From contig CBDBGH010000003.1 in NCBI GenBank assembly GCA_965205265.1, positions 5,056,001-5,120,000 on the forward strand: a stretch of 64,000 nt of DNA. Reading direction: 5' to 3'. A program made the position numbers and the translations under genes. This document shows, piece after piece, positions 1-38,969 of this stretch. Every line of letters starts with the position of its first letter. Position 1 is the stretch's first letter. Source of the stretch: Alphaproteobacteria bacterium. Lineage in GTDB: Bacteria > Pseudomonadota > Alphaproteobacteria > Bin95. Below the pieces are notes generated by a model that was not told where the DNA came from, did no database searches, and was given only the letters and a program-made list of their open reading frames with translations.

Positions 1-930
1 TTCGTTGACTTCGAGCAAGGCCCCTTCGCCTGCCGAAAAGACAATGCGGGCTTCGGCGTCGATGTCCTGGCTCCAGCGGGGGAAATGACAATCGACAACG
101 CGCCGCGCGATTTGCTGGAGAGCGCGCCTGAATGTCATGTCATCCAGATCGCGCCGTTCCCCGAGAACCACGTCGAACATGCCCCGGACGGTTATGGCGT
201 CAAGGTTGACCTCCGGGTCGGGGCCATCGGCGGCCGCAACCATTGCCATATTCCCGAGGTGGACCCTCTCACCCGGGTCGCGGCTTTCCAGGAAAACGGA
301 GATGGTATGGATGCCGGCGTCCTGCATCGCCTCGGTAAGGCAGGCGAGATTGTGACGATGGCCCTCCTGCGCCAGACGCCGGTGAGCGGCCTCGCGGGGT
401 TCGTTGCGAATTTCCTCGTCCGAAAGCGGGGCAAGCAGCGGGGTCTGTTTCCAGGCCTCGGACGTCCACTGGAGGTCGGCCCGTTGGAGCCGGATGTCCG
501 CTTCGTTCGTGCGGACGGTGATTTCGGCCTCGCCGCCGAAGTCCTCGGACCAGCCGGAATACGATGCGTCGAGCACCTCGTCCAGAGTGTGTTGCAGCGC
601 CTCCACGAAGCTGAGCGAGGACATGGGTAGCCGGGCCCACCGGCCCGACTGCCCGTGAACCAGTTGCTGGAGGCCCGACACGGTGATCTGTGGCGGCCGG
701 TCCGTCAAAGGCTGGCCCGAGGCCGGAACATAACGGACCGGGCCGACGGTCACGTTGCCTTCGTGGCCGGAAATGCAGGCCTCGATCTCGGCTATGCCCG
801 CAATCTGCATGAAGCTCGTCAGCACCGCGAGATTATGGCGGGCGATGACGGCGGGGAGATCGTCGTCGGTCGCGGGGCCCGGTGGAGTCCTGAAATAGTG
901 GGCTTCGGAGATGCTGCGTTCGCTGGGCAT
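1..930 (-). CDS. DUF6878-like paralog (two divergent domains), 3' end runs off the window
   Basis: Translated by hand from ATG at 930 (GAGGA upstream): MPSERS...HNLAVLTSFMQIAGIAEIEACISG...YSGWSEDFGGEAEITV...HNLACLTEAMQDAGIHTISV...FPRWSQDIDAEARIVF. Same motifs as the 4.8-16.5 kb paralogs; absent from the ORF track because there is no stop in the window. Confidence 0.7.
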   Translation of the reverse strand, partial: MPSERSISEAHYFRTPPGPATDDDLPAVIARHNLAVLTSFMQIAGIAEIEACISGHEGNVTVGPVRYVPASGQPLTDRPPQITVSGLQQLVHGQSGRWARLPMSSLSFVEALQHTLDEVLDASYSGWSEDFGGEAEITVRTNEADIRLQRADLQWTSEAWKQTPLLAPLSDEEIRNEPREAAHRRLAQEGHRHNLACLTEAMQDAGIHTISVFLESRDPGERVHLGNMAMVAAADGPDPEVNLDAITVRGMFDVVLGERRDLDDMTFRRALQQIARRVVDCHFPRWSQDIDAEARIVFSAGEGALLEVNE

Positions 931-3491: not shown

Positions 3492-4260
3492 CTCTCCCCG
3501 GCGTGATCGCCGGGTTCCCATTGAAGTCGCGCGAATCGAGCCGGCAGACCCAGGCATTCGTGAAACTCTCCCCGGCGTGATCGCCGGGTTCCCATTGAAG
3601 TGAGACGAGATGAACAAGGCAGCCTGGGATCGTTACGCACTCTCCCCGGCGTGATCGCCGGGTTCCCCATTGAAGTGCATCCGATTGCGCCAAAGCTCCA
3701 GCGCTTCGGCTCCTCTCCCCGGCGTGCTCGCCGGGGCCCCACATTGAAGTTCGTAGTAACAGACGTTTTTCGGCGGGCCCTTGGTGACCTCTCCCCGGCG
3801 TGCTCGCCGGGGTCCCCATCATTGAAGAAGCCGTCAACAGGATGCCGACGATGACGAGCAGCGCCGTGCTCGCCCCGGCATGATCGCCGGGGCTACCATT
3901 GAAGCGGTCAAATATGCCACCGCATAGCGAGCCCAAGCAGCCCCCACGCCGGCCTGCGGGCCGGATGCATACATTGAAGCCTCGGCAAACGCGTTTCGGA
4001 GCCACCGAATGTTCGGAAGTTTGCCCGGCCTCCGGGCCGGACACATTGAAGCCCTCATATTTCCGCCGCGGCAAGGCCCTCCGGGCAGGGCACTCGCACA
4101 TTGAAGCCGCCCCGAATCCCGGCAAGCTATGGTTCAATCGAAGAGATCTCCCCGGCCTCTGGCCGGGCACACCACACCACACATTGAAGGTAGGCAACAC
4201 CAGGCTTGATTGCCCCCTGGTTTGCCGGCCCCGGCGAAACTGCCGGGGCTCGAATTGAAG
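3492..4260 (+). CRISPR. orphan CRISPR array, ~11 repeats, consensus CTCTCCCCGGCGTGATCGCCGGGTTCCCATTGAAG(T), type I-G/I-C-like
   Basis: Repeats start at 3492, 3566, 3640, 3713, 3789, 3869, with degenerate units ending ATTGAAG at about 3979, 4051, 4106, 4189, 4260; unique 36-40 nt spacers in the first half; a GC hairpin in each repeat. Confidence 0.92.
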
Positions 4261-4791: not shown

Positions 4792-5532
4792 CTACGGGAT
4801 GACCTCCGCGTCCGCTTCGGGCGGTTCCGGTACCAGGAAGACCGGGAGCTCTCTGGCTATCGACTCAATGCGCCAGCCGAACTCGAATTTGGCAATATCC
4901 GGCGTGACGGTGATCGTGCCGGCGCTGCCCTCGCCGAGCTCCCAGCCTGGATAGTGTTCGTCGGCAACCTCGACGGCGAACGCCTCGCATATGTCGGTGA
5001 GGGTCTCCTTGCCCAGGGAGACCGGGCCCATGTCCGGCGGCGTCGTGGCCAGCAGGTCGCCAAAACCCCGATCTCCGTAACCGCTGACCTGAAGCCGGAT
5101 TTCCATGATGCCGTGCTTCTGCATCGCGTGACGGAGGAGGCCGAGAGGCTCCGCGGTTCCCGTGAGCAGAACGGGAGTCTCGGCGGTGTATTTTTCGTCG
5201 TTCCAGCCGATCTCGAGCCGGGCTTCGTCCGGGGTGACGGTGATCGCGCCGCTGCCGCCATCGCCCAGTTCCCATCCGGGATAGCAGTCGCTCGTTATGT
5301 CCGCCCCGAAATGCTGGCAGAAGTCCTCGAGCGTGCCGCCGTCGATCTCGATGGCCCCGGCCTCCGGGGGATCGATCGCCTCCAGCTCGGCGTGTCCCTG
5401 ATCGTTGTAGCCGTTCACCGCGATACGGACGGTGGCGATTCCATGGGCGCGCATGACGTTCTGGAGGTCGCCGAGGCCGGCCGCCTCGACGGGTTCAGGC
5501 GCTTGCGCCGAAGTGGATTCCTGATGTTCCAT
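4792..5532 (-). CDS. DUF6878-like tandem two-domain protein
   Basis: Two copies of M..HGI..(V/I)...GY.D.G ... YPGWELG(D/E)G..G.ITVTP. Confidence 0.75.
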   Translation of the reverse strand: MEHQESTSAQAPEPVEAAGLGDLQNVMRAHGIATVRIAVNGYNDQGHAELEAIDPPEAGAIEIDGGTLEDFCQHFGADITSDCYPGWELGDGGSGAITVTPDEARLEIGWNDEKYTAETPVLLTGTAEPLGLLRHAMQKHGIMEIRLQVSGYGDRGFGDLLATTPPDMGPVSLGKETLTDICEAFAVEVADEHYPGWELGEGSAGTITVTPDIAKFEFGWRIESIARELPVFLVPEPPEADAEVIP

Positions 5533-5541
5533 GATTCCCTC

Positions 5542-6253
5542 CTATGGCCCATGCTCCGCCCGGGGTTCACCCGGGCCGGACAGGAGCGGGATAATCCGGT
5601 AATCGATTTCCGGGCGGCGCCACGCGAACCGGAGCGCCGCCTCGTCCTGCGTGAGCAGGATTGTTCCCGTGCTCCCGGCCCCGTCCTTCCACCGGGGATA
5701 CAGGGTATCCAGGACGTCGGTCGACAGGCGCTCGACAAAGTCCTGGAACCGGGTGCCGGCGATGTCGCTGTCGGGCGGACGCGGCCAGGGTCCGTCCATG
5801 TCGTCGATCTCGGCATAGCCGTCGCCGCGTCGTCCGTGAAACGCCACTTCCATGCCGGAGATCGCGTTGAGCTGCATCCAGGAGTGCAGCCGCCCGAGAG
5901 CGCGGGCCGTACCGGCCGGCATGCGGGGATGGTCCCGAAGGCCGACGGACTCGATTGCCGCCGGCGCCATCCGGCGCTGTCCGAACTCGATAACCGCGCC
6001 GTCGGCAAGGACGGCAATGCGCCCGTGGCTGCCGTCATTGACCTCCCAGCCGGGAAAATCGGCCTCGATGACGTCCCGGATGACATCATCGGCGAAGGCG
6101 AGGGCAATCCGCTCGAGTTGCGGGTCATGGGTCCCGGAACCGGGCGCGGGCCTGACGACGGATACCTCGCCCTCGTCGCCATAGCCGTCGATCTCGATCT
6201 CCACGATTTCATCGCCGGTCTCGTGCATCCGGTCGCGGAGTGCCGCCAGCCGG
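5542..6253 (-). pseudogene. DUF6878-like two-domain gene, 3' portion; interrupted near codon 15 by an IS21 element (5' end at 10340-10382)
   Basis: Removing the IS and one GCCGG copy restores in-frame MPDADMSDPVCIPRLAALRDRMHETGDEIVEIEIDGYGDEG; RBS CAGGAG upstream of ATG 10382. Confidence 0.8.
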
Positions 6254-6347
6254 TGTTAGCGACGGTTAGGAAGGGCGTTTATTTGCTGGCGCGGAACGGC
6301 CGGTTTGTGCGGCTTGCGAGCAGCGTCGCATGGGTTAGGTGTTGCGT

Positions 6348-7241
6348 TCATCTGATTGGGCGGTCATCGGTTTCGAGCGGCTCGCCGTCGCGGTCACGGA
6401 TGAGCATGTCGTTCCAGTCCTGGTTTTCGAGGGCCGGTCGCATTCGGACGATTCTTGTGTCGTTGTCTTGCATGCGGCGGGCGGCGTGATCGCCGTATCG
6501 TGTAGCGTCCCAGGCACAGAAGATACGGCGCGGGTTCCAGGCCTCGACCCATTTGGGGATTCTGGCCGTGATGGCGCCGGTGGAGACGACGGCGCATTTG
6601 CTGCGTTTTTCCGGGACGAGGTGGAGGGAGAGGATCGACAGGGCGTCGAGGGCGCTGCCGGTGAGGATGACGGTGCCGGGCCAGTCGGGCTCCCATGACA
6701 TCCAGAAGCCGCCGTCTGCGGCCGGCTCCTGCGCTGCGGGGAGGGTCTCTATGCCGACCACCTTGCTGGCGGCGTTTCGGCGGAGGAACACGGGATTGCC
6801 GCGCCGGTCGGCACGGATCAGGCCGAGGCCTCGGCATAGCTCGACGAGCGCGTCGGCGAGGCCGCGCTGCTCGATGAGGTATTGCCGCAGCGCCGGCCAG
6901 CGAGGGTCCTGGCACGAGGGCTCCGCCTCACAGCGACTGTTCGGGAGCCGTGAGTGGCGCGGCAGTTGGGCGAGGAAGTCGAGGGCTTCGGTCGTTGGGC
7001 ATCCGAGCGCATGAACCGCCAGCTGGATGGCCCCGGCGCCTCCCTCTCCGCGCAGATGGTCGTAGAACATGAAGCGGTTGATGGAGAGGACCGAACCGGC
7101 TCGTCTCCAGCGCGCGGCATCGGCGGGATCGCGGCGATAGCCGAGGGCGTGGACCACGTCTTCGAGGGGGCAGCTTCGCAGCCCCTCGGCCCGCAGGCGG
7201 CGATCCCATGGATGCAGATGCTGCACGGCTGGCTCAGGCAT
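6348..7241 (-). CDS. DUF3991/TOPRIM primase-like passenger protein (acidic motifs degenerate)
   Basis: [39 protein letters not shown]; start MPEPAV overlaps the istB end. Confidence 0.7.
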
Positions 7242-8019
7242 CCCCCGTGTCTTGCGCCGTGCTCTTGCCCGCTCCTTTTGCCGATCGCCGCCGGCGGCGA
7301 TCGGCGCTGCGCTGCTTCTGGCGTTCCTCGGCCTCCTTGCGGCGGTATGAGTCGCCGTCGATGGCGAGGATCTCGGCATTGTGGACGAGCCGGTCGACAA
7401 GGGCCACGAGGCAGGCGGCGTTGGGGAAGGCCTCGCTCCACTCGGCGAAGGGGCGGTTTGTGGTGATGATGGTGGAGCGCTGCTGGCTGCGGCTTGAGAC
7501 GATATTGAACAGCAGGTCGGCATGACGGTTGGAGTAGGAGAGATATCCGACTTCGTCGATGACCAGGAGGTGCTGGCGGGCGTAGAAGCGCAGCCTGCGC
7601 TGGAGCATTGTGTCGGAGTCGATGGCGGCGAGCTCGCCGAGCAGGCTGGCGGCGGTTGCGAAGCGCACGGTGTGGCCTTCGAGGACGGCGCGGTGTGCGA
7701 TATTGGCGGCGATTGTGGACTTGCCGACGCCGTTGGGGCCGATGAGGACGACATTGGCGCCCTCGCGGAGGAAGTTGAGGGTCATGAGGTCCTCGACGGC
7801 CATGCGGTCGCATCGCCTTGGCCAGTCCCAGTCGAAGTCGGCGAGCGGCTTGAACTGTCCGAGGCGGGCGGCGGTGAGGCGTCGCCTGAGGCTTCGGCTT
7901 CGCCTCTCTTCCTCTTCCCATGCGATCAGGGGCGGGAGCCAGTCGCGCTCCGCAACCTCGCTCCAGTGGGCGAGGAGGCCGTGCAGTCCGAGCGCCGTGG
8001 CGCGGTCCTTGAGGGTCAT
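7234..8019 (-). CDS. istB: IS21 helper ATPase IstB
   Basis: Walker A GPNGVGKS, Walker [28 protein letters not shown]. Confidence 0.95.
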
Positions 8020-9521
8020 TCTTCGCTGTCCTCCTCGTGGTGGCTTGCGAGCCCGTCGTATCCGCCGAGGTCGTGATCGCGGACCGCGATATCGCGCAGT
8101 CTTGGATCGCCGGGCAGGTCGATGGGGATGGGTGGTGGCTCGTTGCGCTGTTCGCGCCGCCGGTTCAGGCTGAAGCGCACCGCATTGGGATGGGGGACGC
8201 CGCGCTCAAGGGCTTCATCGATGGCGGCTTCGAGTTCGACGGCTCCGTAGTCGTCGAGCAGGCGCAGCAGGGAGGCGACGGTTGTGCCGATATTGCCGCC
8301 GCGCCTGGCGGTCTCGGCAAGCAGGCGCTCGCTGTCGGGGGCGGCCTGGAGAAGGCGGCTCTGCCCGCGCAGGCGGTGGGCGTGACGTTTGAGCCTGACC
8401 AGCTCCTCGATGTGCTCGGGGGTCTCGATGCGGGCCGCCTTGTCGAAGCTGCGCGGATGACGGGCGACGGTGTCGGCGCCGTCGAGGATGCGTACCTCCT
8501 CCAGTGTCGCGACCACGGTGAGGGTGCGCCGCGTATGGGTATGCGGGACGCTATAGTCATTGAGGTCGAACCTGGCGTAGGGGGTCTTGCCGATCCTGAC
8601 CTCGACCCTCTCGTCGACGGGGGGCCGGTCGTCGGGCAGCGCCATCAGGGAGCCGCGCTCGCGCTCGAAGGCCTCGCGCACGGTGAGGGAGCGGTCGTCC
8701 GGCCAGCGACGGTCGGCGGCGACGCCGTCGCACCAGGCGCGGGCCCGGGCGTTCAGGTCGTCGAGGTCGCGCCAGGCGCGGGCGGCGAAGAAGTTGTCGC
8801 GCACATAGCGTATGGCGCGCTCCACGCGCCCCTTCTCGTTGCCGCGCGCGACCGCGACCGGCTTGGGCAGGAAGCGGTAGCGGGCGGCGAAGTCGAGGAG
8901 CCGGGGGTTGAACCGGATGGCGTCGCCCTGGCGCTCCAGCACGACGCTCTTCAGGTTGTCGTACCATAGCTCGCGGGGCACGCCCTGCCAGGCCTCGAAG
9001 GCCTCGACATGGCCGCGCAGGAAGTTGTCCATCGCGGCATTGAGGTAGAAGTGCAGGAAGATGCGGCGCGAGTAGCTCAGCACCATCACGAAGCCCATCA
9101 GCGGGCGCTCCGCGCGCCCGATCCTCACCTTGCCGAAGTGGGCCCAGTCCACCTGGGCCAGCTCGCCGGGCAGGGTCTTGAGGCGCAGATAGGCCTCGGC
9201 CACAGGCCGCGGGCGCTCCGGCGCGATCATGCGCCGGAAGTGGCTCTGGCTGCCCCGGTAGCCGCGCTCGACCGCCATCTGGTAGAGCCGGCTGGCTGGC
9301 AGCCTGGGCCAGACCGCCAGGGTCTGGCGGATGAAGGGCCGGAACGGATCGATCATCGAAGCCCTGCGCCGCCTCTCACGCGCGGGCGCCCCGGCGGCCG
9401 CTACCGCGCGCTCGACCGTGCCGTGGTGGACGCCGAGCTGGCGCGCGATCGTGCCGATCCTCCACTTCTCGGCAAAATACAGCCGCTGGATCTCGGCACG
9501 GGTCTGCTTGTCGATCGCCAT
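8016..9521 (-). CDS. istA: IS21 transposase IstA
   Basis: N-terminal HTH, PGELAQVDW, YDNLKSVV, KGRVER, NDYSVP; start MAIDKQ. Confidence 0.95.
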   Translation of the reverse strand: MAIDKQTRAEIQRLYFAEKWRIGTIARQLGVHHGTVERAVAAAGAPARERRRRASMIDPFRPFIRQTLAVWPRLPASRLYQMAVERGYRGSQSHFRRMIAPERPRPVAEAYLRLKTLPGELAQVDWAHFGKVRIGRAERPLMGFVMVLSYSRRIFLHFYLNAAMDNFLRGHVEAFEAWQGVPRELWYDNLKSVVLERQGDAIRFNPRLLDFAARYRFLPKPVAVARGNEKGRVERAIRYVRDNFFAARAWRDLDDLNARARAWCDGVAADRRWPDDRSLTVREAFERERGSLMALPDDRPPVDERVEVRIGKTPYARFDLNDYSVPHTHTRRTLTVVATLEEVRILDGADTVARHPRSFDKAARIETPEHIEELVRLKRHAHRLRGQSRLLQAAPDSERLLAETARRGGNIGTTVASLLRLLDDYGAVELEAAIDEALERGVPHPNAVRFSLNRRREQRNEPPPIPIDLPGDPRLRDIAVRDHDLGGYDGLASHHEEDSEE

Positions 9522-9522
9522 C

Positions 9523-9957
9523 TCACTCCCTTCGCGCCTGGCGCAGGCCCGGATAGACCGCCAGGCCGCAGAACCGACCGCAGCGCTCGCAGCGGAACAC
9601 CCGGGCGGGACGGTCGGGCCCGAAGGGCCGGGTTCCGGACCGCCCCGCCGGTATGCGCGCCACATCAGGACGCCGGCGCGCGACGGTCAAAGGGTGATGC
9701 GTCACTTTCTGCGCGATGGCCCGAACTGCCGGCTGCCGCACACGGCGCCGTTCGCGGTAGCGCCGCTGGCGCTCGGCATGCTTGTGACGGCCCCGGCGGC
9801 TGTTCTGGTAGCGCTGCCCCGCAAGGCGCACCGACCGACGCCGCGCCCGCCCGCTGCAACGCGGCGAACAGTAGATATGGCCAGAGTCGCAGCGCCGGCA
9901 GAGAACCACCTGGCGGCGGCACAGGGCGCAGGTGAACAGGCGGGCGGCGTTCCTCAT
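9523..9957 (-). CDS. Cys-rich (zinc-binding) basic protein upstream of istA
   Basis: CALC...CRRCD...YCSPRC and C-terminal CERC; inside the IS ends in both copies. Confidence 0.65.
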   Translation of the reverse strand: MRNAARLFTCALCRRQVVLCRRCDSGHIYCSPRCSGRARRRSVRLAGQRYQNSRRGRHKHAERQRRYRERRRVRQPAVRAIAQKVTHHPLTVARRRPDVARIPAGRSGTRPFGPDRPARVFRCERCGRFCGLAVYPGLRQARRE

Positions 9958-10406
9958 CGCGACCGATGAGAACGGGGTGGACCCACGCCCGGACGCGCAC
10001 GATACTGCGCTTCCGGGCCGCGCCTTGCATGGCTCGGGGGGTGCGGCGCCGGTCGTTGCCACCAAGCCAACGGGGCCGGCGCCGCATCGTTCTCAGAAGC
10101 CCCAGTCTACCCCCTGCCGCAGCCCGGGAACGGCCAACCCGGTCGCCAGGACGTCGCCGCCCTCCGGGAGGCGAAAATCTCAACGCGACGGGGGCCGAGG
10201 ACTCCGGTCGGGCTACGCCCTCCTTCCGTCCTCGGCCCCCGTCATAAACCCGGCCGCGCCTGTCTCACGCTGTTTGTCGTGCGCACCACAAAAGCGCGCT
10301 ACGCCAGCAAATATGCGCCCTTTATGATAATCACCGACAGCCGGGGGATGCAGACCGGATCGGACATGTCGGCGTCGGGCATCGGGTTTTCTCCTGTACC
10401 GGAACG

Positions 10407-11144
10407 CTAGGGTTCCGACGTGTCCGGCGCCGGCAATCCAACAAGCCGGAGCGGCGGGTCGTAAACGGTTGTCTCCTCGTAGAACCCCATATGCAGGGTA
10501 GCCTCGTCGGGAGTGATGGTCACCGTGCCGTTGCCGCCCTCGTTGGTCTCCCATCCGCGATAGTGGTGACTGACGGTGCCGGCTGCGAAGCCTACGGCGA
10601 AACGGTCGAAGGAGGTCCCGTCGCCGACATCGAGATGGCGGGCGGTCTCGGGCACGATGTGCCGGAGTTGAATGTTCCCTTCGTCGCTGTAGCCGGAGCA
10701 CTCCAGCTCGACACGTTCGACATTGTTGGCGCGCATCCATGCCTGGACCTTGCGGGTGGCGGGACTGCCCGAGAGGTCATCAGGATCCCGCAGGGCAAGC
10801 TCCTGCTCGTAGCGTCCGAAAGCGAGCGTGGCCTCGTCGGGCCCGATCGAGACGGTCCCGTTGCTGCCCGTGTCGATCTCCCAGCCCCTGCGGTGCTCGT
10901 GGAGCACGTCGTAGCCGACACGACGGGCAAAGTCTGCCAGGGACCTGTCGCCGACTTGCATGTCCAGGGCCTCCGGCGGCGAAACGCTGCGAAGATCCAC
11001 CCGCCCTTCGTCCCCATAACCGTCGAATTCGAGTTCGACGCCCGTGACGGCGTTCTCCTGCATCCACTCCTGCAGCCGAAGCAGTGCGGGGGGCGCCAGC
11101 CCCTCAAGCGTGGGCCCGGGACCGTCGGGAGCGTATCCGGTCAT
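10407..11144 (-). CDS. DUF6878-like tandem two-domain protein
   Basis: LQEWMQENAV..VELEFDGYGDEG...GWEIDTGSNG and second unit ...GYSDEG...GWETNEGGNG. Confidence 0.8.
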   Translation of the reverse strand: MTGYAPDGPGPTLEGLAPPALLRLQEWMQENAVTGVELEFDGYGDEGRVDLRSVSPPEALDMQVGDRSLADFARRVGYDVLHEHRRGWEIDTGSNGTVSIGPDEATLAFGRYEQELALRDPDDLSGSPATRKVQAWMRANNVERVELECSGYSDEGNIQLRHIVPETARHLDVGDGTSFDRFAVGFAAGTVSHHYRGWETNEGGNGTVTITPDEATLHMGFYEETTVYDPPLRLVGLPAPDTSEP

Positions 11145-11161
11145 CGCGATTCCTTCCCGGG

Positions 11162-11914
11162 TCAGGGCGAAGGGGCCTCTCCGGCCGCGGGCGCCGGTTC
11201 GGCTTCGAGACGGATCGGGTCCCGTACCTTGAAGTCCTCGTCATAATAGCCGAGCGAGATTACCGCCGAGCCCGGCTTGACCACGAGGGTGCCGTTACCG
11301 CCGAAATTGTTCTCCCAGCCGGGATAGAGCTTGTCCGCGAGCGTGCAGCCCAGCCGGTCGATGAACGGAGCCAGATTGTCGCCGTCGATCCCCGTGGCCG
11401 GCCAGTCCGGCTGGACATTCGTCACGGTGGCCCGGCCGGTGTCGCCATAGCCGTCGAGCCCGATCTCCACCTCCGGGATGCCGTGCTGCTTCATCCAGCT
11501 CTGCAGAACGGCGAGTTCGGGTGCGAGCGGATTGCCGTGGAGTTCCACCGCCTCGCGCTCCTGCATGAACATGTTCCGTGTGCCGAATTCCAGCTCCGCC
11601 GCGTCGGGCCTGATGACAATGTTGCCGGCACTGCCGTCATTGTCCTCCCACCCGAAGAAATGCCGGTCCAGGATGGCGACCGCCAATTTAGCGACGAAGC
11701 TGTGGAGGTCCTTCCCGGCGATCTGTACGCCCGGGTCCTGCTTCGGATGGATGTCCAGCACTTCGGCGCTGCCATTGTCGGAATAACCGTCGAACGTGAC
11801 TTCGATGATTGTGACGCCGCGCTCCTTCATCCAGTTCTGGAGAACGGCGAGTTCGGCGGACACCTTCAGCGGCTGGAGCGGTTCCGCGGAAGCGCTGGAG
11901 TCTTCTTGGGTCAT
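11162..11914 (-). CDS. DUF6878-like tandem two-domain protein
   Basis: FDGYSDNG...GWEDNDGSAG; LDGYGDTG...GWENNFGGNG; ends EAPSP. Confidence 0.8.
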   Translation of the reverse strand: MTQEDSSASAEPLQPLKVSAELAVLQNWMKERGVTIIEVTFDGYSDNGSAEVLDIHPKQDPGVQIAGKDLHSFVAKLAVAILDRHFFGWEDNDGSAGNIVIRPDAAELEFGTRNMFMQEREAVELHGNPLAPELAVLQSWMKQHGIPEVEIGLDGYGDTGRATVTNVQPDWPATGIDGDNLAPFIDRLGCTLADKLYPGWENNFGGNGTLVVKPGSAVISLGYYDEDFKVRDPIRLEAEPAPAAGEAPSP

Positions 11915-11931
11915 CGGCTGTGTTCCTCGTC

Positions 11932-12660
11932 TCAGGGTGAAGGGGCGGTCTCCGGCTCCGGGGCGGGGACAAGGGCCCGCTCCTCGTAGCGGAACCTTTC
12001 CTCGCGCCGGCCGAATTCGAGCAGGGCGCTCTCCTGGGTGAATTCGATCCCGCCTTCCCCGCCCAGATCGTCCTCCCAGTCGCCGTGCGTCCGGGAAAGG
12101 AGTTCGTCGAGGAAGGTCATGAAATGGTCGAAGTCTTTACCGGCTATTTGGATATTGCGGGCCTCCGGCGGGTCGGTGTCCCGGACCTCCACCACTCCCT
12201 CGTCATTGTAGCCATTGATGGAGACGAGTATGCCGCGGACGCCGTTCTCCTTCATCCACCCGTGAAGGATGGCGACCTCGGGCGCGCCGGTCTCGGCCAG
12301 ATCGACCGGCTCGCCCCATTGGATCTCCTCGCTGCGCTTGCCGAAATTCAGGGACGCCATTCCGGGCTCGATATGGATGCTGCCGGAAGCCCCCTCGTCG
12401 TCTTCCCAGCCGTCCGCAAAGGCATTGAGTATTTCATCGCCGAAATCGACCACCGATTTCTCGAGATCCTGACCGTTGATCCGCAGGGAGCGGGCGTGGC
12501 GCGGGGCGATGTCCGCCATCTCCACTTCGCCTTCATCCCCGTAGCCGTGGAAACCGACAACGATGGTCTCGACGCCGTTCTCCCTCATCCACGCCTGAAG
12601 TGTGGCCAGGGAATGGGGTGCCTCATATGGCGGGGCTGCTGTCTGGGGAGGTTCGTTCAT
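11932..12660 (-). CDS. DUF6878-like tandem two-domain protein
   Basis: FHGYGDEG...GWEDDEGASG; INGYNDEG...DWEDDLGGEG; start MNEPPQ; ends ETAPSP. Confidence 0.8.
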   Translation of the reverse strand: MNEPPQTAAPPYEAPHSLATLQAWMRENGVETIVVGFHGYGDEGEVEMADIAPRHARSLRINGQDLEKSVVDFGDEILNAFADGWEDDEGASGSIHIEPGMASLNFGKRSEEIQWGEPVDLAETGAPEVAILHGWMKENGVRGILVSINGYNDEGVVEVRDTDPPEARNIQIAGKDFDHFMTFLDELLSRTHGDWEDDLGGEGGIEFTQESALLEFGRREERFRYEERALVPAPEPETAPSP

Positions 12661-12697
12661 CGGTCCGGTCTCCTTGTCACGGCGATAGGGTGGCCTG

Positions 12698-13099
12698 TCA
12701 GGGCCCTGGTTGGACCTCTTCGGCCCGCTCCTTCGGGCCGCCGACAACCAGGTCGGGTTGAGCGACCAGCTCGCGCCAGCCGAATTCGATACGCGCGCCG
12801 TCGGGCGTGAACTCGATGGCCCCGCCGCTGCCGTCATTGTCCTGCCAGCCGGAGTAGAATTCGGCGAGCATGTCGCTTGCGAGACCGCATACGAACTCTT
12901 CAAGTTCCCGGCCGCTTATGGACCGTTCGAAGGCGTCCTCCGGCTCGCTCTCCACGCCGTAGACCGACCCCTCGTCCCCGAAGCCGTTGAAGGCGACGCC
13001 GAGCGAGGAGACATTCTGCTCGCGCATCCAGGCGCGCAGCGTGTCGAGATCCCCGAAATTGCCGGGGACAGGCTCGGTCGGACGGGCGGAATCGCTCAT
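12698..13099 (-). CDS. DUF6878-like single-domain protein
   Basis: LRAWMREQNV..FNGFGDEG...GWQDNDGSGG; start MSDSAR with AAGGGGAG RBS. Confidence 0.8.
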   Translation of the reverse strand: MSDSARPTEPVPGNFGDLDTLRAWMREQNVSSLGVAFNGFGDEGSVYGVESEPEDAFERSISGRELEEFVCGLASDMLAEFYSGWQDNDGSGGAIEFTPDGARIEFGWRELVAQPDLVVGGPKERAEEVQPGP

Positions 13100-13113
13100 T
13101 GCGTTGCTCCCCT

Positions 13114-13914
13114 TCAGGGCTGCGGCAGGCCCGCCGGGGTAGCGGGCCCGGCCTCCTCGCGGGGGTCGGGATCGAAGGTTAGCCAGAAGGTGTCGCCGTC
13201 GATATGGACCCGGGCCTCGCGGTCCGCGTCGAACCATCGGGGATGTTCAACCAGCAGAAGGTCCAGGGAAAGCTCCTTAAGGAGCTGGCCCAGTTCCCGG
13301 TCCGAGGTCTTCCACGGTCTGGTCGACCACGTTCCGTCGTCCGGGTCTCGGGACAGGTGCCGGATGCCGTCGAGCGCCGGGGCCGGATGCCTCAGCTTCT
13401 CCGGATGCCGGTCCACGACGATTTCATCGAGCCGCAGTTTGCCGTTTGTGGATTCGAACCTCACTTCGATCCCTCCCAGCTCGTGCCGGCGCAGGGTTGC
13501 GAGCAATTGCTCGAGGTTCCCGGTGGCCAGGTCGCCGGCCATGCGCAGATGGCTGGTCGTCATGTCGAGATCGGTCGAGATGAAGGGAAGATAGGCGAAA
13601 CTGGCCGCCAGCGGGCTGTTATGCCCGAAATAGGACATGAACGCCCCGTGCATGGCTTTCCTCACCTCGGGGGTGTAGCGGTGCAGGGGCAGAGTGCTCC
13701 AGGTCTTCAGCAGGAAGGCCTGCTGACCGGAGGTCCGGACATGAACCCCCGGACCGTCATAGGCGTCATCCTCATAGGCGATACGCACCAATTCGCAGGC
13801 CGGGCCCCGGCTGTCCGGATCGGGGTCGGCCGTCCGGCGCGCGAATTGCCGGAGGAACTCGATATCGCGGGCGGCCTTGCGCCCCGTGACGGTGTTCAGC
13901 AGCTTCTCCATCAT
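13114..13914 (-). CDS. protein with divergent DUF6878-like C-terminal domain; N-terminus shared with 13911-14765
   Basis: DIEFLRQ...LVRIAY N-terminus; NLEQLLATLRRHELGGIEVRF...EHPRWF C-terminus. Confidence 0.6.
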   Translation of the reverse strand: MMEKLLNTVTGRKAARDIEFLRQFARRTADPDPDSRGPACELVRIAYEDDAYDGPGVHVRTSGQQAFLLKTWSTLPLHRYTPEVRKAMHGAFMSYFGHNSPLAASFAYLPFISTDLDMTTSHLRMAGDLATGNLEQLLATLRRHELGGIEVRFESTNGKLRLDEIVVDRHPEKLRHPAPALDGIRHLSRDPDDGTWSTRPWKTSDRELGQLLKELSLDLLLVEHPRWFDADREARVHIDGDTFWLTFDPDPREEAGPATPAGLPQP

Positions 13915-14765
13915 GGCGAGGGGCCGTCCTCGTCATGCACGCTGCCAGGTTCGCGTTCCGGTTCGAAGACCAGCGGTCTGAAGCTGATCGAGACAATGGC
14001 GGTGCGGGGGTCGCCTGCACTGTCGCCCAGGCCGGAGAGCACGATGGAGCAGTCGGCGTCCGTGCCGAACAGTTCGGGGTGCTCGAGGCAGACCGTGTCG
14101 ACCGCAACGCGGAACAGCATGTCCCAGTAGTCCGCTTCCGGCTCGTTCCATGGCATGGCGGACAGGGTGCCGTCGGGCTGCATGACCGGCTGCTCGAGCC
14201 CGTCGGGCGGGGGTTGGGCGGAATCGATTTCCGTGTCCCTGGGAACGTGGTCGATGCGGTTTACCCAGAGGTCCCCGCCAACGGACGAGAAGTCGATGCG
14301 GAAATGAACGACATTCTCGCGGAGGCCGGGCAAAAGGCGCTCCAGGTTGCGCTCCGCGACGGCCTTCAGGACTCCGGGCAACGCTTCCCGTTCTCCGGGC
14401 TCCATAATGCGGACCAGATCCTGCGTCGGCGACGGGAAGAACCCGTAGCCCGCCTGGGCCAGATGGTTTCTGGCGGCGCCGACGGCGTCGCGGACGGCCG
14501 GTGTCTGCCTGTGCGGCGGCATCCGGCGCCAGACATGCAGGCAGGCGGCGAACTCGTGCGGGTCGCGCGGCTCGATGCCGGGGTCGGCACGGTTCCCGCG
14601 TCCATAGGCAAGGCGCACGAGCCGGGCCGGAGCGTCGTAACCGGCGATGTCCAGGTCGTCGAAGCCGTCGGGAAAGTCCTCCCGGAATCCCTGCTCCAGC
14701 AGGAACTCGACATCCTCCGTCAGCTGCTCGCGCGACGCGCCGGATATGGAGGCGGGGAGGGCCAT
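13911..14765 (-). CDS. paralog of 13114-13914, divergent DUF6878-like C-terminus
   Basis: DVEFLLEQ...LVRLAY; NLERLLPGLREN...EHPELF; ATGA overlap; ends DGPSP. Confidence 0.6.
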   Translation of the reverse strand: MALPASISGASREQLTEDVEFLLEQGFREDFPDGFDDLDIAGYDAPARLVRLAYGRGNRADPGIEPRDPHEFAACLHVWRRMPPHRQTPAVRDAVGAARNHLAQAGYGFFPSPTQDLVRIMEPGEREALPGVLKAVAERNLERLLPGLRENVVHFRIDFSSVGGDLWVNRIDHVPRDTEIDSAQPPPDGLEQPVMQPDGTLSAMPWNEPEADYWDMLFRVAVDTVCLEHPELFGTDADCSIVLSGLGDSAGDPRTAIVSISFRPLVFEPEREPGSVHDEDGPSP

Positions 14766-15556
14766 CAGGGGGCCGGGGCCTCCGGCCTGTCGTCGAGCGG
14801 TGCCGGTTCGGCATAGACGATGGAACCGGCATAATCGGGATGCACGAGCCTTTGTTCCCGGATGCCGAGATCCAGATTGGCCTCGCCGCCTTCCACCATG
14901 ACGGTGGCGCGGCCGCCCGGTCCGTTGCTCCAGTCATCATTGGCGCGGTCAGCGATGTCCCGGGCAAGCATCTTCATGGCGGCCGCGAATGCGAGCGGCC
15001 CGGCCGGTTCGCGTATCCATGTGTCGTCGGGACCGCGGACGACAGCCTGAAAGCCGTCGACTACCGTGATGCTCCCGTCGGCCGAATCCGGCGAGACCGC
15101 GATGTCCTCAAGAGTGGCATGGCCGTCCCTGCCGTTGAGCGTCACCGCGATTTCACCGATGTCCTGCCCCTCCATGAGAGAAGAGAGGATTGCCAGGTTG
15201 TGGCCGTTGGCGACCGCGAGCGCTTCGACCCTTGTCCGGGCATCCACGGGATCCCGGAAGAGATCTTCTCCGGTTCGCAGACCGAGAAGGCGCCTGGCGT
15301 CCGGCCCGGCCCGGCCAGGGTGGATCCTCAGCTCGGAAGCCGGCTGGCCGGGGGCGTCGTAGAAGGCGTGGCCGATCTCGACGGCGCCGGCGATACGGTC
15401 GGACATATCGTCCGGTTCCGCGGGTCTCCAGGCAACGCCCATCGAGAGCAGCTGCATGGCCTGGTTGGCAGCGTCGCCCACCTCCCAGAAACGGCCTCCG
15501 TCCTCAAGCCAGACGGTGCCGTCGGTCCGGTTTTCGTAGAGTCTGCGTTCGCCCAT
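14765..15556 (-). CDS. two-module protein: RRLYE N-terminal domain plus DUF6878-like domain
   Basis: RRLYENRTDGTVWLEDGG; HNLAILSSLMEGQDIGEIAVTLNG...DDWSNGPGG. Confidence 0.6.
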   Translation of the reverse strand: MGERRLYENRTDGTVWLEDGGRFWEVGDAANQAMQLLSMGVAWRPAEPDDMSDRIAGAVEIGHAFYDAPGQPASELRIHPGRAGPDARRLLGLRTGEDLFRDPVDARTRVEALAVANGHNLAILSSLMEGQDIGEIAVTLNGRDGHATLEDIAVSPDSADGSITVVDGFQAVVRGPDDTWIREPAGPLAFAAAMKMLARDIADRANDDWSNGPGGRATVMVEGGEANLDLGIREQRLVHPDYAGSIVYAEPAPLDDRPEAPAP

Positions 15557-15655
15557 GGAACGATTCTCCCCTGGCCGCTGCCCGCGCACGGGGAAGAGTA
15601 ATCCCGGACCGTGAAAACTCACACAGGGCCGCAGGCGCCATGCGGCCGGTCCGCG

Positions 15656-16465
15656 TCAGGGGGACGGGCTGTCCGCCGGTTCGTCCGCCGGCAACTTCCG
15701 GTGTGCGCCGGAAAAGGTCGTGCCGACCTGGGCCGTTTCGACCTGCCTCATGCTGACGGACAGATGCGCCTCTCCCTCGGAAAAGGTGATGACGCCGACG
15801 CTTCCAAGCTCGTCGTTCCAGTCGCTGTCGAAGAGATCGAGCATATCGAACGAGAGACGGCCGAGCGCCGCCTCAACGGTGCAGGACGGGGCCGCCCGGC
15901 GCGTCCACATGCGGGCATCGTCCGGAACGACCTCCTGAAGGCCGCGCAGGCGGGTTCCGAGGAGGTCGTAGGCAGCGGCGTCGGGATTGCCGGTGATCGA
16001 AACGACCTGGCCGGCCCGGTCGCGGCCGCGGAATTCCACGGAGATGCTGTGGACCCCGCCTTTTTCCATGCGGGACAGGATCTGGTGGAGATTGTGTTCG
16101 GTGGCCCTGTTGCGTTCGTCGAAATGTCGCCGCCAGGATCCCTTCGGGGGCTCCGGGTCATGTGTGACCTCCGTCCCGAAACCGAAAGCCCGATGCCCGG
16201 CCGGCCCCATGCGATCGAAATGGACCTGGAGATGGTCGGCATTGCGGTTCGGCGGCGTGAATTCGGAAAAGGCGATGACCGTGGCGCGGTCGAGCGCTTT
16301 GTGCGTGATGCCCCGCGCCGGGGGATAACGGTCTTCCCGGTCGACGCCGTGAAAGAGCGCAGCGCTGGCTGTGTTCATGCCGCCGGTGAGATTCCACACC
16401 TTCCCGGCGTCGTCCAGGAGCCACAATTGCTGGTCGTCGGTTTCGTAGAGTCTGCGCAACGCCAT
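15656..16465 (-). CDS. paralog of 14765-15556 (RRLYE domain plus DUF6878-like domain)
   Basis: RRLYETDDQQLWLLDDAG; HNLHQILSRMEKGGVHSISVEFRG...SDWNDELGS; RBS GGAGG; ends DSPSP. Confidence 0.65.
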   Translation of the reverse strand: MALRRLYETDDQQLWLLDDAGKVWNLTGGMNTASAALFHGVDREDRYPPARGITHKALDRATVIAFSEFTPPNRNADHLQVHFDRMGPAGHRAFGFGTEVTHDPEPPKGSWRRHFDERNRATEHNLHQILSRMEKGGVHSISVEFRGRDRAGQVVSITGNPDAAAYDLLGTRLRGLQEVVPDDARMWTRRAAPSCTVEAALGRLSFDMLDLFDSDWNDELGSVGVITFSEGEAHLSVSMRQVETAQVGTTFSGAHRKLPADEPADSPSP

Positions 16466-16622: not shown

Positions 16623-17087
16623 GTGACCAAGGTCGAGATCTTCACGGACGGTTCCTGCCTCGGCAATCCCGGTCCCGGCGGCTGGGCCGCCCTTCTGCGT
16701 GTTGGCGGGAAGGAGAAGGAACTCCTCGGCGGCGAGGCCGCCACCACCAACAACCGCATGGAACTGATGGCGGTCATCGCCGCGCTCGAGGCGTTGAAGC
16801 GCCCGTGCGAGGCGGAGCTGTTTTCCGACAGCCGCTATGTGCTCGACGGCATCACGAAATGGATGGCGAACTGGCGCCGCCGGAACTGGAGGACGGCCTC
16901 GGGAGATCCGGTGAAGAACCGGGACCTGTGGCAGCGTCTGGACCGTGCTGCCGGTCCGCACCGGATCGGATGGAACTGGGTCCGCGGCCATGACGGACAT
17001 CCCGAGAATGAACGCGTCGACGGGCTTGCCAATGCCGAGGCCGCCCGTCAGGCGGAGAAGCGCGCCCCGGCGGCGCCCGCTCTCTAG
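16623..17087 (+). CDS. rnhA: ribonuclease HI
   Basis: [52 protein letters not shown]; GTG start. Confidence 0.96.
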
Positions 17088-23351: not shown

Positions 23352-23726
23352 ATGGACCGCGAATATCCCGATGACAGGGACATCCTGTTTCACCTGAAGC
23401 GCCGTCTTCGGGAAAAGCTGGACGGAGACAGGGACCATCTTCTCAGGATCGCCGGGGTCGAGTGCTCCGTCGATGCGCTCGGTGCCCATGTCGGCGCCGT
23501 GGTCCCGGACGACTATCGCCGGCTGGGCCTGATCCTGGCGGAAACGCCGGATCTGGGGTTTCCTGACGAGGTCTATCTGGGTGACGACAGCGTTTTCGCC
23601 ATCATCCGGAGGAGCATCGGGACAGAGCTGATGAAAGAGGCCGAGGCCTGGTTGGAGGCGGCACAGGAAGAAGCGGAGGCGGGACGGGAACGGGACGGGC
23701 TTCCCGAGCCGGCGCCGACGGCGTAG
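23352..23726 (+). CDS. hypothetical protein, paralog of 23777-24136
   Basis: Shared RDILFHL.R.LR and VP.D.RRLGLILAETP.LGFPDE; LPEPAP tail. Confidence 0.75.
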   Translation: MDREYPDDRDILFHLKRRLREKLDGDRDHLLRIAGVECSVDALGAHVGAVVPDDYRRLGLILAETPDLGFPDEVYLGDDSVFAIIRRSIGTELMKEAEAWLEAAQEEAEAGRERDGLPEPAPTA

Positions 23727-23776: not shown

Positions 23777-24136
23777 ATGCCGGCTAGAGAACCCGAGAGG
23801 GATATCCTGTTTCATCTTGAGCGCGAATTGCGCGCCGACATGGAGAATTACAGGGGCGAATTGGTCGCCTCCGGTTCGTCCGACGAAGAAGAGGCCGAAC
23901 TGCACGCTCTCGTCGAGGCCCTGGTTCCCGAGGACCACCGGCGCCTGGGCCTGATCCTGGCGGAAACGCCGACGCTGGGATTCCCGGACGAGGGCGTGAT
24001 CGAGGACGACAATGTCTTCCCGGTAATCCAGAAGTCCATCTACCGCCACCTCATGTCGAAGGCCGATGTCATTCTCCAGCAACTCCGGGAAGAGTCCCGC
24101 CATGACCTGCCGGAACCGGCTCCGGGGGGTTGCTGA
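23777..24136 (+). CDS. hypothetical protein, paralog of 23352-23726
   Basis: Same motifs as above. Confidence 0.75.
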   Translation: MPAREPERDILFHLERELRADMENYRGELVASGSSDEEEAELHALVEALVPEDHRRLGLILAETPTLGFPDEGVIEDDNVFPVIQKSIYRHLMSKADVILQQLREESRHDLPEPAPGGC

Positions 24137-38893: not shown

Positions 38894-38969
38894 GCCGCAT
38901 TAGCTCAATGGACAGAGCGACGGTTTTCTAAACCGCGGGTTGCGGGTTCGAGTCCTGCATGCGGCCCCA
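38894..38969 (+). tRNA. tRNA-Arg(TCT)
   Basis: Cloverleaf, loop TT-TCT-AA, GGTTCGAGTCC, CCA. Confidence 0.88.

What the first reader, a model, noticed from the sequence alone, without database searches (positions are those of the whole stretch)
4792..16465. Tandem array of ~10 modular DUF6878-like paralogs (an eleventh at 1-930)
Seen: co-directional, closely packed genes built from a ~110-aa acidic domain with conserved GY.D.G and GWE...G..G motifs. Five are two-domain, one is single-domain, two are fused to a DxEFL..LVR.AY module and two to an RRLYE..W module. Paralogs are strongly diverged at DNA level, so the expansion is old and maintained. The family name is from recall, and I know of no function for it. 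Inference: diversified acidic binders or nucleic-acid mimics targeting variable host proteins (anti-defence) or forming a hetero-oligomer.
Basis: partly seen in the sequence, partly recalled or inferred. Interest (0 to 1): 0.7.

Follow-up and report, generated by a model that had tools for sequence, protein, structure and literature searches.

The report
Expanded array of DUF6878 genes
Ten neighbouring genes are diverged copies of a small acidic protein of unknown function that normally travels as one gene, paired with a conserved partner, on conjugative plasmids and phages, and its amplification here suggests a repertoire of binders aimed at variable targets.

Summary
Ten co-directional minus-strand genes (4792-6228 and 10407-16465), plus an eleventh at 1-930, carry one or two copies of a ~115-aa acidic domain. 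Pfam names it DUF6878 above its cut-off for 7 of the 11.

New findings:
- The family has 25-32 genes in this genome, all within C3:4.95-5.21 Mb. It was absent from 36 of 36 other genomes of the same taxonomic family.
- Elsewhere it is a single gene (79 of 80 genome loci). It sits in ParB/SSB/ArdC/antirestriction blocks of alphaproteobacterial plasmids and also occurs in phages.
- It lies next to a conserved His-rich gene, DUF6915, in 77 of 80 genome loci and 63 of 71 viral loci. DUF6878 was the faster-evolving partner in 10 of 10 comparisons. This genome has one DUF6915, outside the window. Earlier scan notes on other DNA had already named this pair.
- Models give an alpha/beta domain with no solved relative. 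A homodimer model passed its controls.

Function remains unproven. My best reading (0.4) is a diversified set of target-binding counter-defence or establishment proteins, possibly working with DUF6915. No paper in the searched library mentions either DUF.

The parts
1..930 (-). Paralog K, two divergent DUF6878-like domains. The gene continues about 100 nt beyond the window start (343 aa in the genome).
   Evidence: Pfam PF21798 at 18.4 bits, below the cut-off. Family profile A2 gives E 4e-12 with domains at 30-152 and 191-304. Related to I and J at 28-31% identity.
4792..5532 (-). Paralog A, two DUF6878 domains, 246 aa, pI 4.16.
   Evidence: Pfam 35.9 bits. Two profile domains. Its two domains are sisters in the tree with 99/99 support.
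5542..6228 (-). Paralog B, main part (two domains). It is cut from its first ~13 codons by the IS.
   Evidence: Pfam 26.9 bits. The open frame ends exactly at the IS border, 6254. Removing the IS and one 5-nt target copy in silico restores one frame.
6254..10339 (-). IS21-family insertion, not part of the family: IstA 8016-9665, IstB 7234-8019, DUF3991 passenger gene 6348-7226, imperfect terminal inverted repeats, 5-nt target duplication GCCGG.
   Evidence: There are 14 copies of at least 4000 nt at about 100% identity in the genome. Contigs of 3 other runs cross one or both of its junctions.
10345..10382 (-). The displaced 5' end (start codon and ~12 codons) of paralog B.
   Evidence: Reading-frame check across the insertion point.
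10407..11144 (-). Paralog C, two domains, 245 aa.
   Evidence: Pfam 42.4 bits.
11162..11914 (-). Paralog D, two domains, 250 aa. This is the paralog that was modelled.
   Evidence: Pfam 58.0 bits. AlphaFold2 model with pLDDT 92.8 and pTM 0.78.
11932..12660 (-). Paralog E, two domains, 242 aa. The start is taken at the ATG at 12660; my gene caller preferred 12588.
   Evidence: Pfam 41.3 bits on the longer ORF.
12698..13099 (-). Paralog F, single domain, 133 aa, pI 4.05.
   Evidence: Pfam 29.2 bits. Model with pLDDT 78. Homodimer model ipSAE 0.58 against a best control of 0.00.
13114..13914 (-). Paralog G: orphan N-terminal module (about 1-128) plus a divergent C-terminal DUF6878-like domain.
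   Evidence: No Pfam hit. A2 profile E 1e-3. The C-terminal part hits a Pfam-positive paralog at C3:5187863-5188375 with E 6e-5. Picked up by jackhmmer.
13911..14765 (-). Paralog H, same architecture as G. Its start overlaps the stop of I, and its stop overlaps the start of G.
   Evidence: G and H are 27% identical, E 9e-18. H C-terminus against G C-terminus gives 2e-8. The N-terminal module has no relatives other than G in the word-indexed search.
14765..15556 (-). Paralog I: RRLYE..W N-terminal module plus a C-terminal DUF6878-like domain.
   Evidence: A1 profile 2e-13, A2 profile 1e-5. I and J are 30% identical, 2e-22.
15656..16465 (-). Paralog J, same architecture as I. It is the first gene of the run, divergent from the RNase H gene at 16623-17087 (+).
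   Evidence: Pfam 25.8 bits at residues 124-233. The N-terminal module has no relatives other than I.

Best explanation
Each gene encodes one or two copies of an acidic alpha/beta domain (helix, hairpin, long helix, long hairpin). The domain is modelled to pair through its last strands into a dimer, or into a covalent pseudo-dimer in the two-domain forms.

The family is the fast-evolving half of a two-gene module. The other half is the conserved His-rich DUF6915. Conjugative plasmids of Alphaproteobacteria carry the module among their establishment and anti-restriction genes, and phages carry it too.

In this genome the variable half has been amplified to 25-32 genes inside an accessory region of about 0.3-0.45 Mb. 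The conserved half stayed single.

I read the array as a repertoire of target-binding proteins, acting either as decoys or inhibitors on their own or as interchangeable adaptors for DUF6915. Their targets would be variable proteins of hosts or rival elements, giving a counter-defence or establishment role.

Shown here: homology, architecture, distribution, the gene pairing and the rate difference between the two partners. Modelled only: the fold and the dimer. Inferred: binding to any target, the link to defence, and cooperation with DUF6915.
For: Homology and a conserved fold core.

Acidity: pI 4.05-5.77 for the paralogs, and 147 of 151 family representatives below pI 5.

Variable positions lie at exposed strand and helix positions and in the loop after strand 2. 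Glycine turns, Trp and the hydrophobic core are fixed.

Plasmid members lie co-directionally with ParB, SSB, ArdC-like zincin, antirestriction, RadC, DUF932, an N6-methylase or H-NS genes in 5 of 5 loci viewed. The family hits 125 plasmid records, 56 of them conjugative and 16 mobilizable. These are the gene classes that passages I read in PMC11541004 describe as enriched in leading-region 'anti-defence islands', together with many uncharacterised families.

The family is present in 71 IMG/VR loci and one BFVD phage protein.

DUF6915 is adjacent on the same strand in 77 of 80 genome loci and 63 of 71 viral loci (Pfam-confirmed in 5 of the 6 neighbours tested). DUF6915 is more conserved than its DUF6878 neighbour in 10 of 10 locus pairs, for example 85% against 39%.

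Small tandem arrays recur in phages (12 of 71 loci), so duplication of this gene is a repeated event.

The same region has also amplified ankyrin and pentapeptide-repeat genes, which are other binder families.

All ten genes have intact frames, strong coding scores (46-103) and translational coupling.

The homodimer model gave ipSAE 0.58 (runs 0.58, 0.40, 0.63) against a best control of 0.00. Contacts agreed at 84% or more and partner pLDDT was at least 73. That mark was reached by 20 of 30 proteins solved as homo-pairs and by 1 of 23 solved as single chains.
Against: No target is known and none was tested.

No match in PADLOC, PHROGs or NCBIfam.

No solved structure resembles the fold beyond Z 5.7, so there is no structural link to any known inhibitor.

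The invariant Gly/Asp/Trp/Glu turns could mark a conserved ligand site rather than a pure scaffold.

The host region shows none of the conjugation or capsid markers searched, so 'leading region' logic is borrowed from relatives.

The window's array has no DUF6915 beside it. The only copy lies about 61 kb before the window.

One paralog is already broken by an IS, so not every copy is indispensable.

The phage neighbourhoods are mixed (DNA metabolism, lysis, unknown) and do not point to a single function.
Confidence: 0.4

Rival explanations
1. Immunity or antitoxin array. DUF6915 would be a small toxic enzyme and DUF6878 its acidic inhibitor. The array would be a stock of orphan inhibitors against DUF6915-like enzymes brought in by rival elements.
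For: The module is a two-gene pairing of small proteins on plasmids and phages. In genome loci DUF6878 comes first in all adjacent cases counted (79 downstream, 0 upstream), which from my own knowledge is the usual antitoxin-toxin order. DUF6915 has 36 invariant positions among 6 sequences, many of them His, Asp or Glu, which suggests an enzyme. There is weak fold likeness to the immunity protein EsaG (8guo_A: Z 4.7, rmsd 3.7, 91 aligned; TM 0.35). Toxin-antitoxin genes are enriched in leading regions (PMC11541004, passages read).
Against: DUF6915 is 45-85% identical between distant plasmids and phages, so there is little toxin diversity for about 30 diverged inhibitors to match. The gene order is reversed in most phage loci (51 upstream against 14 downstream). 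No DNA-binding domain for autoregulation was found. The core pI of DUF6915 is only 6.7-7.9. The EsaG likeness is within the range of chance matches (note).
Confidence: 0.15
2. Ligand sponge or small enzyme. The conserved G-[YF]-G-D-x-G and G-W-E-x-N-x-G-x-x-G turns would form a pocket at the dimer that binds a nucleotide-like signal or a metal. The paralogs would differ in ligand.
For: Across 52 family members the invariant or near-invariant residues are Gly, Asp, Trp and Glu in two turns. A dimer was modelled. About 20 of the top 50 VIA matches are nucleotide-grasping ATP-grasp enzymes (best Z 5.7, rmsd 2.8, 69 aligned).
Against: All structural matches are weak (Z 5.7 or lower) and cover about 65-95 residues of much larger enzymes. 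I had no coordinates, so I could not check whether the two turns are even neighbours. Sponges are not known to need about 30 diverged copies.
Confidence: 0.1
3. Hetero-oligomeric structural assembly. Neighbouring paralogs would co-assemble through the same strand-pairing interface into a mixed filament or scaffold.
For: The strand-exchange interface is generic. The genes are translationally coupled in one operon. Two-domain forms show that two different domains can pair.
Against: Elsewhere a single gene suffices (79 of 80 genome loci). No hetero-complex was modelled. The paralogs are spread over about 260 kb on both strands.
Confidence: 0.1
4. Functionless duplicates that drift in a region tolerant of repeats.
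For: One copy is IS-disrupted. The region is full of IS elements. The array was not seen in 36 related genomes.
Against: At 28-40% identity all ten frames are still open. They keep the family's invariant residues, coding-type codon usage and coupled starts.
Confidence: 0.03

Closest known systems
Pfam PF21798 (DUF6878), the single-gene form on alphaproteobacterial conjugative plasmids and ICEs
   Same: Same domain, scoring above Pfam's cut-off for 7 of 11 genes. Same motifs and same acidity.
   Different: Elsewhere there is one single-domain gene per locus, next to DUF6915 (79 of 80 and 77 of 80 loci). Here there are ten genes in a row with 16 or more domains, two kinds of orphan N-terminal module, Pro-rich acidic tails, and no DUF6915 in the array.
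Leading-region 'anti-defence island' genes of conjugative elements (Samuel and Burstein 2024, PMC11541004; passages read)
   Same: Plasmid relatives sit co-directionally among SSB, ParB, ArdC-like, antirestriction, orphan methylase and toxin-antitoxin genes.
   Different: The family is not named in the passages I read. Its supplementary tables were not opened. The window's host region shows no relaxase or T4SS with the models searched.
Acidic anti-restriction DNA mimics (ArdA, Ocr); properties recalled, not tested here
   Same: Small, strongly acidic, dimeric, and encoded by mobile elements near the DNA that enters first.
   Different: No sequence or fold match to any solved structure. Charge spacing along a DNA-like surface was not examined.
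Tandem arrays of EsaG/DUF600-type immunity genes (array behaviour recalled; structure 8guo)
   Same: Tandem, strongly diverged paralogs of a small alpha/beta protein. Weak fold likeness (Z 4.7, rmsd 3.7, 91 aligned).
   Different: No toxin gene or secretion system stands beside the array. The fold match is within chance range. The conserved partner here is a small His-rich protein that hardly varies.

Membership tests
Pfam DUF6878 (PF21798) | The whole-protein score reaches Pfam's gathering cut-off of 24.3 bits. | tested here: met
   Met for A 35.9, B 26.9, C 42.4, D 58.0, E 41.3, F 29.2 and J 25.8 bits. K scores 18.4, below the cut-off. G, H and I have no hit. Overall 7 of 11 are met. The other four are joined only by custom profiles or transitive hits.
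Pfam DUF6878 (PF21798) | The conserved turns G-[YF]-x-D-x-G and G-W-E-x-x-x-G-x-x-G. | tested here: met
   Invariant G, G, W, G, G across the 11 core domain copies. The same columns are invariant or nearly so in 52 family members.
Canonical DUF6878-DUF6915 two-gene module | A DUF6915 gene within 400 nt on the same strand. | tested here: not met
   No DUF6915 in the window. The only copy in the genome is at C3:4994612-4995148, inside the other paralog cluster. The pairing holds in 77 of 80 genome loci and 63 of 71 viral loci.
Leading-region anti-defence island gene | Lies in the first-transferred region of a conjugative element, on the transferred strand, near oriT and the relaxase. | tested here: inconclusive
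   Relatives sit in ParB/SSB/ArdC-type blocks on plasmids typed MOBP/MPF_T. Positions relative to oriT were not determined. In the own genome there is no VirB4, MOBP relaxase, TraI_2 or TIGR03744 match. For TIGR03744 nothing rang in the control genomes either.
Known anti-defence protein (anti-restriction, anti-CRISPR, signal sponge) | Measured inhibition of a defence system, or homology to a protein with such activity. | not testable with these tools
   No homology to any solved structure. No library of anti-defence proteins was on hand.
Anti-phage defence system component (PADLOC) | Match to a PADLOC model. | tested here: not met
   0 of 14 proteins matched at E up to 1e-3.
EsaG/DUF600-like immunity protein | Shared fold plus a cognate toxin gene beside it. 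| tested here: inconclusive
   Fold match Z 4.7, rmsd 3.7, 91 aligned and TM 0.33-0.35, both in the chance range. No toxin-like gene lies inside the array.

The most novel reading that the evidence does not exclude
DUF6878 and DUF6915 form a widespread, undescribed two-part establishment device of plasmids and phages. A conserved His-rich enzyme (DUF6915) would be aimed at host or rival-element proteins by an exchangeable, fast-evolving acidic dimer (DUF6878). This genome's element would then carry a library of about 30 alternative targeting subunits for its single enzyme, and many of its proteins would be marked by a common Pro-x-Pro C-terminal tail.
Probability: 0.15. Interest if true: 0.85.

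Novelty: new variant of a known kind. Interest (0 to 1): 0.58.

Why it matters
DUF6878 and DUF6915 are carried by many alphaproteobacterial conjugative plasmids (125 PLSDB records hit) and by many uncultured phages. No paper in the searched library mentions either name. A module that both plasmids and phages keep among their early or establishment genes, with one frozen half and one fast-evolving half, is a good candidate for an unknown counter-defence mechanism. This genome offers about 30 natural variants of the variable half, ready for comparison and testing.

Tried and rejected
Fold searches with both models found nothing convincing.
- Foldseek against PDB: best E 0.079 for F and 3.2e-3 at TM 0.12 for D.
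- VIA wide: best Z 5.7 (biotin carboxylase, rmsd 2.8, 69 aligned) and Z 5.5 (MHC-like m144, rmsd 4.3, 87 aligned across both domains).
- The ATP-grasp and MHC-platform likenesses were not taken further because they lie in the chance range.

A profile search of PDB sequences gave only spurious repeat hits to designer PPR proteins. For DUF6915 nothing scored below E 0.77.

PHROGs, PADLOC and NCBIfam gave no family for any paralog.

The INPHARED phage collection gave no tblastn match with a plasmid member as query, although IMG/VR and BFVD do hold relatives.

No orthologous arrays were found for a dN/dS test.
- 0 of 36 genomes of the same taxonomic family matched.
- The metagenome scan with D found none.
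- The scan with the family alignment gave only distant members.
- Runs X2-X5 hold the array with no differences in the paralog parts, so no rate test was possible.
- At 28-40% identity the paralogs themselves are saturated.

Expression: no RNA holder was listed.

No contig joined across the IS, so no uninterrupted allele of gene B was seen.

The N-terminal modules of G/H and I/J have no relatives beyond each other, though the search is limited by its word index.

Rfam at gathering scores found nothing but tRNAs in the window and nothing in five plasmid loci.

The promoter and terminator scan found nothing above chance.

The tree of the 11 core domains is star-like, with 7 of 8 inner branches unresolved. 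Only A1/A2 are sisters, so no duplication order could be given.

Searches failed because the alignment lacked a conserved stretch.

Full report
**What is there**

The window has 67% G+C and is C3:5056001-5120000 of a 5.7-Mb genome in three contigs. On the minus strand, a codon-usage gene caller trained on this genome and the ORF list give ten genes between 4792 and 16465 (A-J) and an eleventh (K) at 1-930.

Translations, all-against-all BLASTP and a domain alignment show a repeated domain of about 115 aa. A, B, C, D and E have two copies and F has one. G and H carry a shared N-terminal module of about 130 aa, and I and J carry a different one of about 115 aa. Each of those four has one C-terminal copy of the domain. 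K has two divergent copies.

Identity among A-F is 28-40%. I, J and K form a second group at 28-31%. G and H are 27% identical to each other.

Pfam names the domain DUF6878 (PF21798). It scores above the cut-off for A, B, C, D, E, F and J, below it for K, and gives no hit for G, H and I. A profile of 52 family members recovers I, K and weakly G. H joins through G, and G joins through a Pfam-positive paralog elsewhere in the genome.

Spacers are 9-37 nt, or stop and start codons overlap, and Shine-Dalgarno-like sequences precede the starts. The run therefore looks like one or two operons.

Positions 6254-10339 are a 4086-nt IS21-family element holding IstA, IstB and a DUF3991 passenger gene. 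It has imperfect terminal inverted repeats and a 5-nt target duplication. It sits inside gene B. Taking it and one target copy out in silico restores a single frame that begins about 13 codons upstream, at 10382.

The element has 14 copies of at least 4000 nt at about 100% identity in the genome. A second, inverted copy lies in the window. Contigs of four public runs from three studies hold the array without a single difference in the paralog parts. Contigs of three of them cross at least one IS junction, and none bridges the insertion point.

**The family in this genome**

A profile of the core domains, run against all six-frame ORFs of the genome, hits 25 ORFs. All lie between C3:4952320 and 5210392, and none lies elsewhere. 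Jackhmmer raises the count to 32 genes. A second cluster of about 14 genes lies at 4.988-5.006 Mb on the plus strand.

None of 36 other genomes of the same taxonomic family, 16 of them in the same genus, has a match at E up to 1e-5.

The surrounding region was surveyed with Pfam from 4.936 to 5.243 Mb. It is accessory DNA. It contains:
- about 30 pentapeptide-repeat genes and about 20 ankyrin-repeat genes;
- Fic and Uma2 genes;
- a Cas9-Cas1-Cas2 set and a type I-G effector;
- 30 tRNA genes;
- RecQ, RecJ, GyrB, topoisomerase, RNase H and RNA ligases;
- a release factor and ClpS;
- a Rep_3 initiator, ParA, four integrases and many IS elements.

I found no VirB4, MOBP relaxase, TraI_2 relaxase, TIGR03744 ATPase or HK97 capsid in the genome. 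For TIGR03744 the control genomes did not ring either. The only T4CP-like match nearby is weak, at C3:4729624. What kind of element this is remains open.

**The family elsewhere**

The core profile finds 1238 representatives at E up to 1e-3 among 1.84 billion clustered proteins. All 34 longer ones that I scanned carry only DUF6878. Of the best 151, 58 have two domains, so the two-domain form is not special to this genome.

With a plasmid member as query, tblastn finds 125 PLSDB records with one place each. Of these, 56 are conjugative, 16 mobilizable and 53 non-mobilizable, mostly from Rhodobacterales and Sphingomonadales.

In all five plasmid loci I opened, the gene lies co-directionally among large ParB, SSB, ArdC-like zincin, antirestriction, RadC, DUF932, N6-methylase, H-NS or toxin-antitoxin genes. 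Passages of Samuel and Burstein 2024 (PMC11541004) describe these classes as enriched in the leading region of conjugative elements, together with many uncharacterised families.

The family is also in phages:
- ESM-Atlas clusters with DUF6878 are mostly labelled viral.
- IMG/VR holds 71 loci.
- The only significant BFVD match of the D model is a DUF6878 protein of an uncultured phage (E 1.9e-13, TM 0.53).

In 80 loci from species-representative genomes, 79 hold a single one-domain gene within 10 kb on each side. In the viral loci, 59 are single, 8 are double and 4 are triple. An array of ten, or about 30 per element, is therefore exceptional.

The closest metagenomic relatives, P0007, P0008 and P0009, sit on contigs of 302,850 and 188,107 nt. 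I could not fetch those contigs.

**A conserved partner**

Earlier notes of this scan named a DUF6878-DUF6915 pair, so I tested it. Pfam identifies the gene next to DUF6878 as DUF6915 (PF21866) in two plasmid loci and three phage loci, and identifies one gene of this genome at C3:4994654-4995151. PHROG 8143 is the same gene.

I built a profile from these six sequences. It finds a same-strand neighbour within 400 nt in 77 of 80 genome loci, always downstream. It finds one in 63 of 71 viral loci, where it lay upstream of a DUF6878 ORF in 51 adjacent gene pairs and downstream in 14. It finds only the one copy in this genome.

DUF6915 has 36 invariant positions among the six sequences, many of them His, Asp or Glu. 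It has no relative among solved structures. In 10 of 10 comparisons between the same pairs of loci it is more conserved than its DUF6878 neighbour, for example 85% against 39% and 71% against 27%.

DUF6878 is therefore the fast-evolving half of a near-obligate two-gene module. Only that half has been amplified here.

**Structure**

The single-domain F, modelled with 52 relatives, gives pLDDT 78 and pTM 0.70. Its order is helix, hairpin, short helix, long helix, hairpin, followed by a poorly defined tail.

The two-domain D, modelled with 45 relatives, gives pLDDT 92.8 and pTM 0.78, with the same unit twice and long final strands.

Neither model has a convincing match among solved structures. 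The best Z values are 5.5-5.7, to ATP-grasp enzymes and to MHC-like platforms. The MHC-like match spans both domains of D. The immunity protein EsaG appears at Z 4.7.

A homodimer of F was modelled with controls. It gave ipSAE 0.58 (runs 0.58, 0.40, 0.63) against a best control of 0.00. Contacts agreed at 84% or more and partner pLDDT was at least 73. That mark was reached by 20 of 30 proteins solved as homo-pairs and by 1 of 23 solved as single chains. The interface is an antiparallel pairing of residues 100-122, exactly the part that was disordered in the monomer model. The model supports a dimer but does not show one. It fits the idea that two-domain paralogs are covalent pseudo-dimers.

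**Sequence variation**

In the 11 core copies, the glycine turns, the Trp, one Met and the alternating hydrophobic positions of the strands are fixed. The outward strand positions, the loop after strand 2 and one face of the long helix are highly variable.

The proteins are acidic, with pI 4.05-5.77 and net charge -8 to -33. In the family at large, 147 of 151 representatives have pI below 5.

The tree of core domains is unresolved except that the two domains of A are sisters (99/99). Within-protein identity of the two domains is 36-44% in A, C, D and E. The two-domain genes therefore did not simply multiply as units.

**Interpretation**

The evidence supports a real, maintained, diversified family. 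After more than 60% replacement, all frames are open, the invariant residues are kept, codon usage is of the coding type and translational coupling is intact.

The family context points to a role when a mobile element enters or takes over a cell. That context includes establishment blocks on conjugative plasmids, presence in phages, and a frozen partner beside a racing one.

My best reading, at confidence 0.4, is a repertoire of dimeric acidic binders. They would act as inhibitors or decoys, or as exchangeable adaptors for DUF6915.

The rivals are an orphan antitoxin or immunity stock against DUF6915-like enzymes, a ligand-binding sponge, a hetero-oligomeric scaffold, and neutral duplicates. 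The low diversity of DUF6915 argues against the first. The need for about 30 copies and the weak structural hints argue against the second. Single-gene sufficiency elsewhere argues against the third. The conservation pattern argues against the last.

No target, ligand, activity or expression has been shown.

**Novelty**

The domain is a catalogued DUF. No paper in the searched library mentions DUF6878 or DUF6915. Other agents of this scan had already noted the pair on other DNA.

What is new here:
- the scale and modular variety of the expansion;
- the quantified near-obligate pairing and its rate asymmetry;
- the dimer model;
- the one-to-many ratio of partner to paralogs in this genome.

Noticed in passing
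window 6254-10339 and 55337-61543: Two inverted, 100%-identical copies of a 4086-nt IS21-family element that carries a DUF3991 passenger gene. The genome holds 14 copies of at least 4000 nt. The right-hand copy is itself split by a DDE_Tnp_1 insertion (about 56358-58272) flanked by a 206-nt duplication of IS sequence, which is unusually long for a target duplication.
   Followed up: partly
window 3492-3904 (+): A small CRISPR-like array of six 36-37-nt repeats spaced 73-80 nt apart, degenerating towards the right (0 of 100 shuffles reach 6 matches). It lies between the 3'-5' exonuclease gene (2115-3107) and paralog A, about 7 kb from the type I-G effector genes reported earlier just before the window.
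   Followed up: partly
C3:4.85-5.30 Mb (whole window included): Proteins of unrelated families in this region end in a Pro-rich acidic tail with P-x-P in the last 8 residues: 98 of 435 genes, against 133 of 4433 in the rest of C3. Every 50-kb bin at 15% or more lies in this interval. The last residue is Pro in 21% of these genes against 8% elsewhere. For the DUF6878-like genes, 19 of 32 have at least two Pro in the last six residues. This may be a shared signal or an imprint of the element's origin.
   Followed up: partly
window 38894-45696 (+): An array of 28 tRNA genes found by ARAGORN. Rfam adds one tRNA-like match of 107 nt at 40026-40132 that ARAGORN did not call. An NTP_transf_8 nucleotidyltransferase gene (42015-43097) sits inside the array.
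   Followed up: no
C3:4.936-5.243 Mb (loci L003-L016 and the window): A giant accessory region. It holds about 30 pentapeptide-repeat and about 20 ankyrin-repeat genes, Fic and Uma2 genes, Cas9-Cas1-Cas2, a type I-G effector, RecQ, RecJ, GyrB, topoisomerase, a release factor, ClpS, RNA ligases, Macro-NADAR, Rep_3, ParA and four integrases. None of the conjugation or capsid markers I searched was found.
   Followed up: partly
window 28427-30871 (-): An 814-aa protein whose only Pfam match is HNH_4, at residues 583-640. The region's 1056-aa Cas9 has its HNH domain at the same position (586-641). It could be a shortened Cas9-like paralog.
   Followed up: no
window 21174-22439 (+) and 24490-25893 (+): Two HipA-like kinase genes about 2 kb apart. 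Between them are diverged direct repeats (23490-23618 and 23912-24040, 73% identical).
   Followed up: no
C3:4994654-4995151 (L005:18297-18794): The genome's only DUF6915 gene lies inside the second DUF6878 cluster and has a C-terminal extension of about 60 aa that the plasmid and phage versions lack.
   Followed up: partly
proteins P0007, P0008, P0009: The closest outside relatives of the window's paralogs lie on metagenome contigs of 302,850 and 188,107 nt, so similar large elements probably exist elsewhere. The contigs could not be fetched.
   Followed up: no
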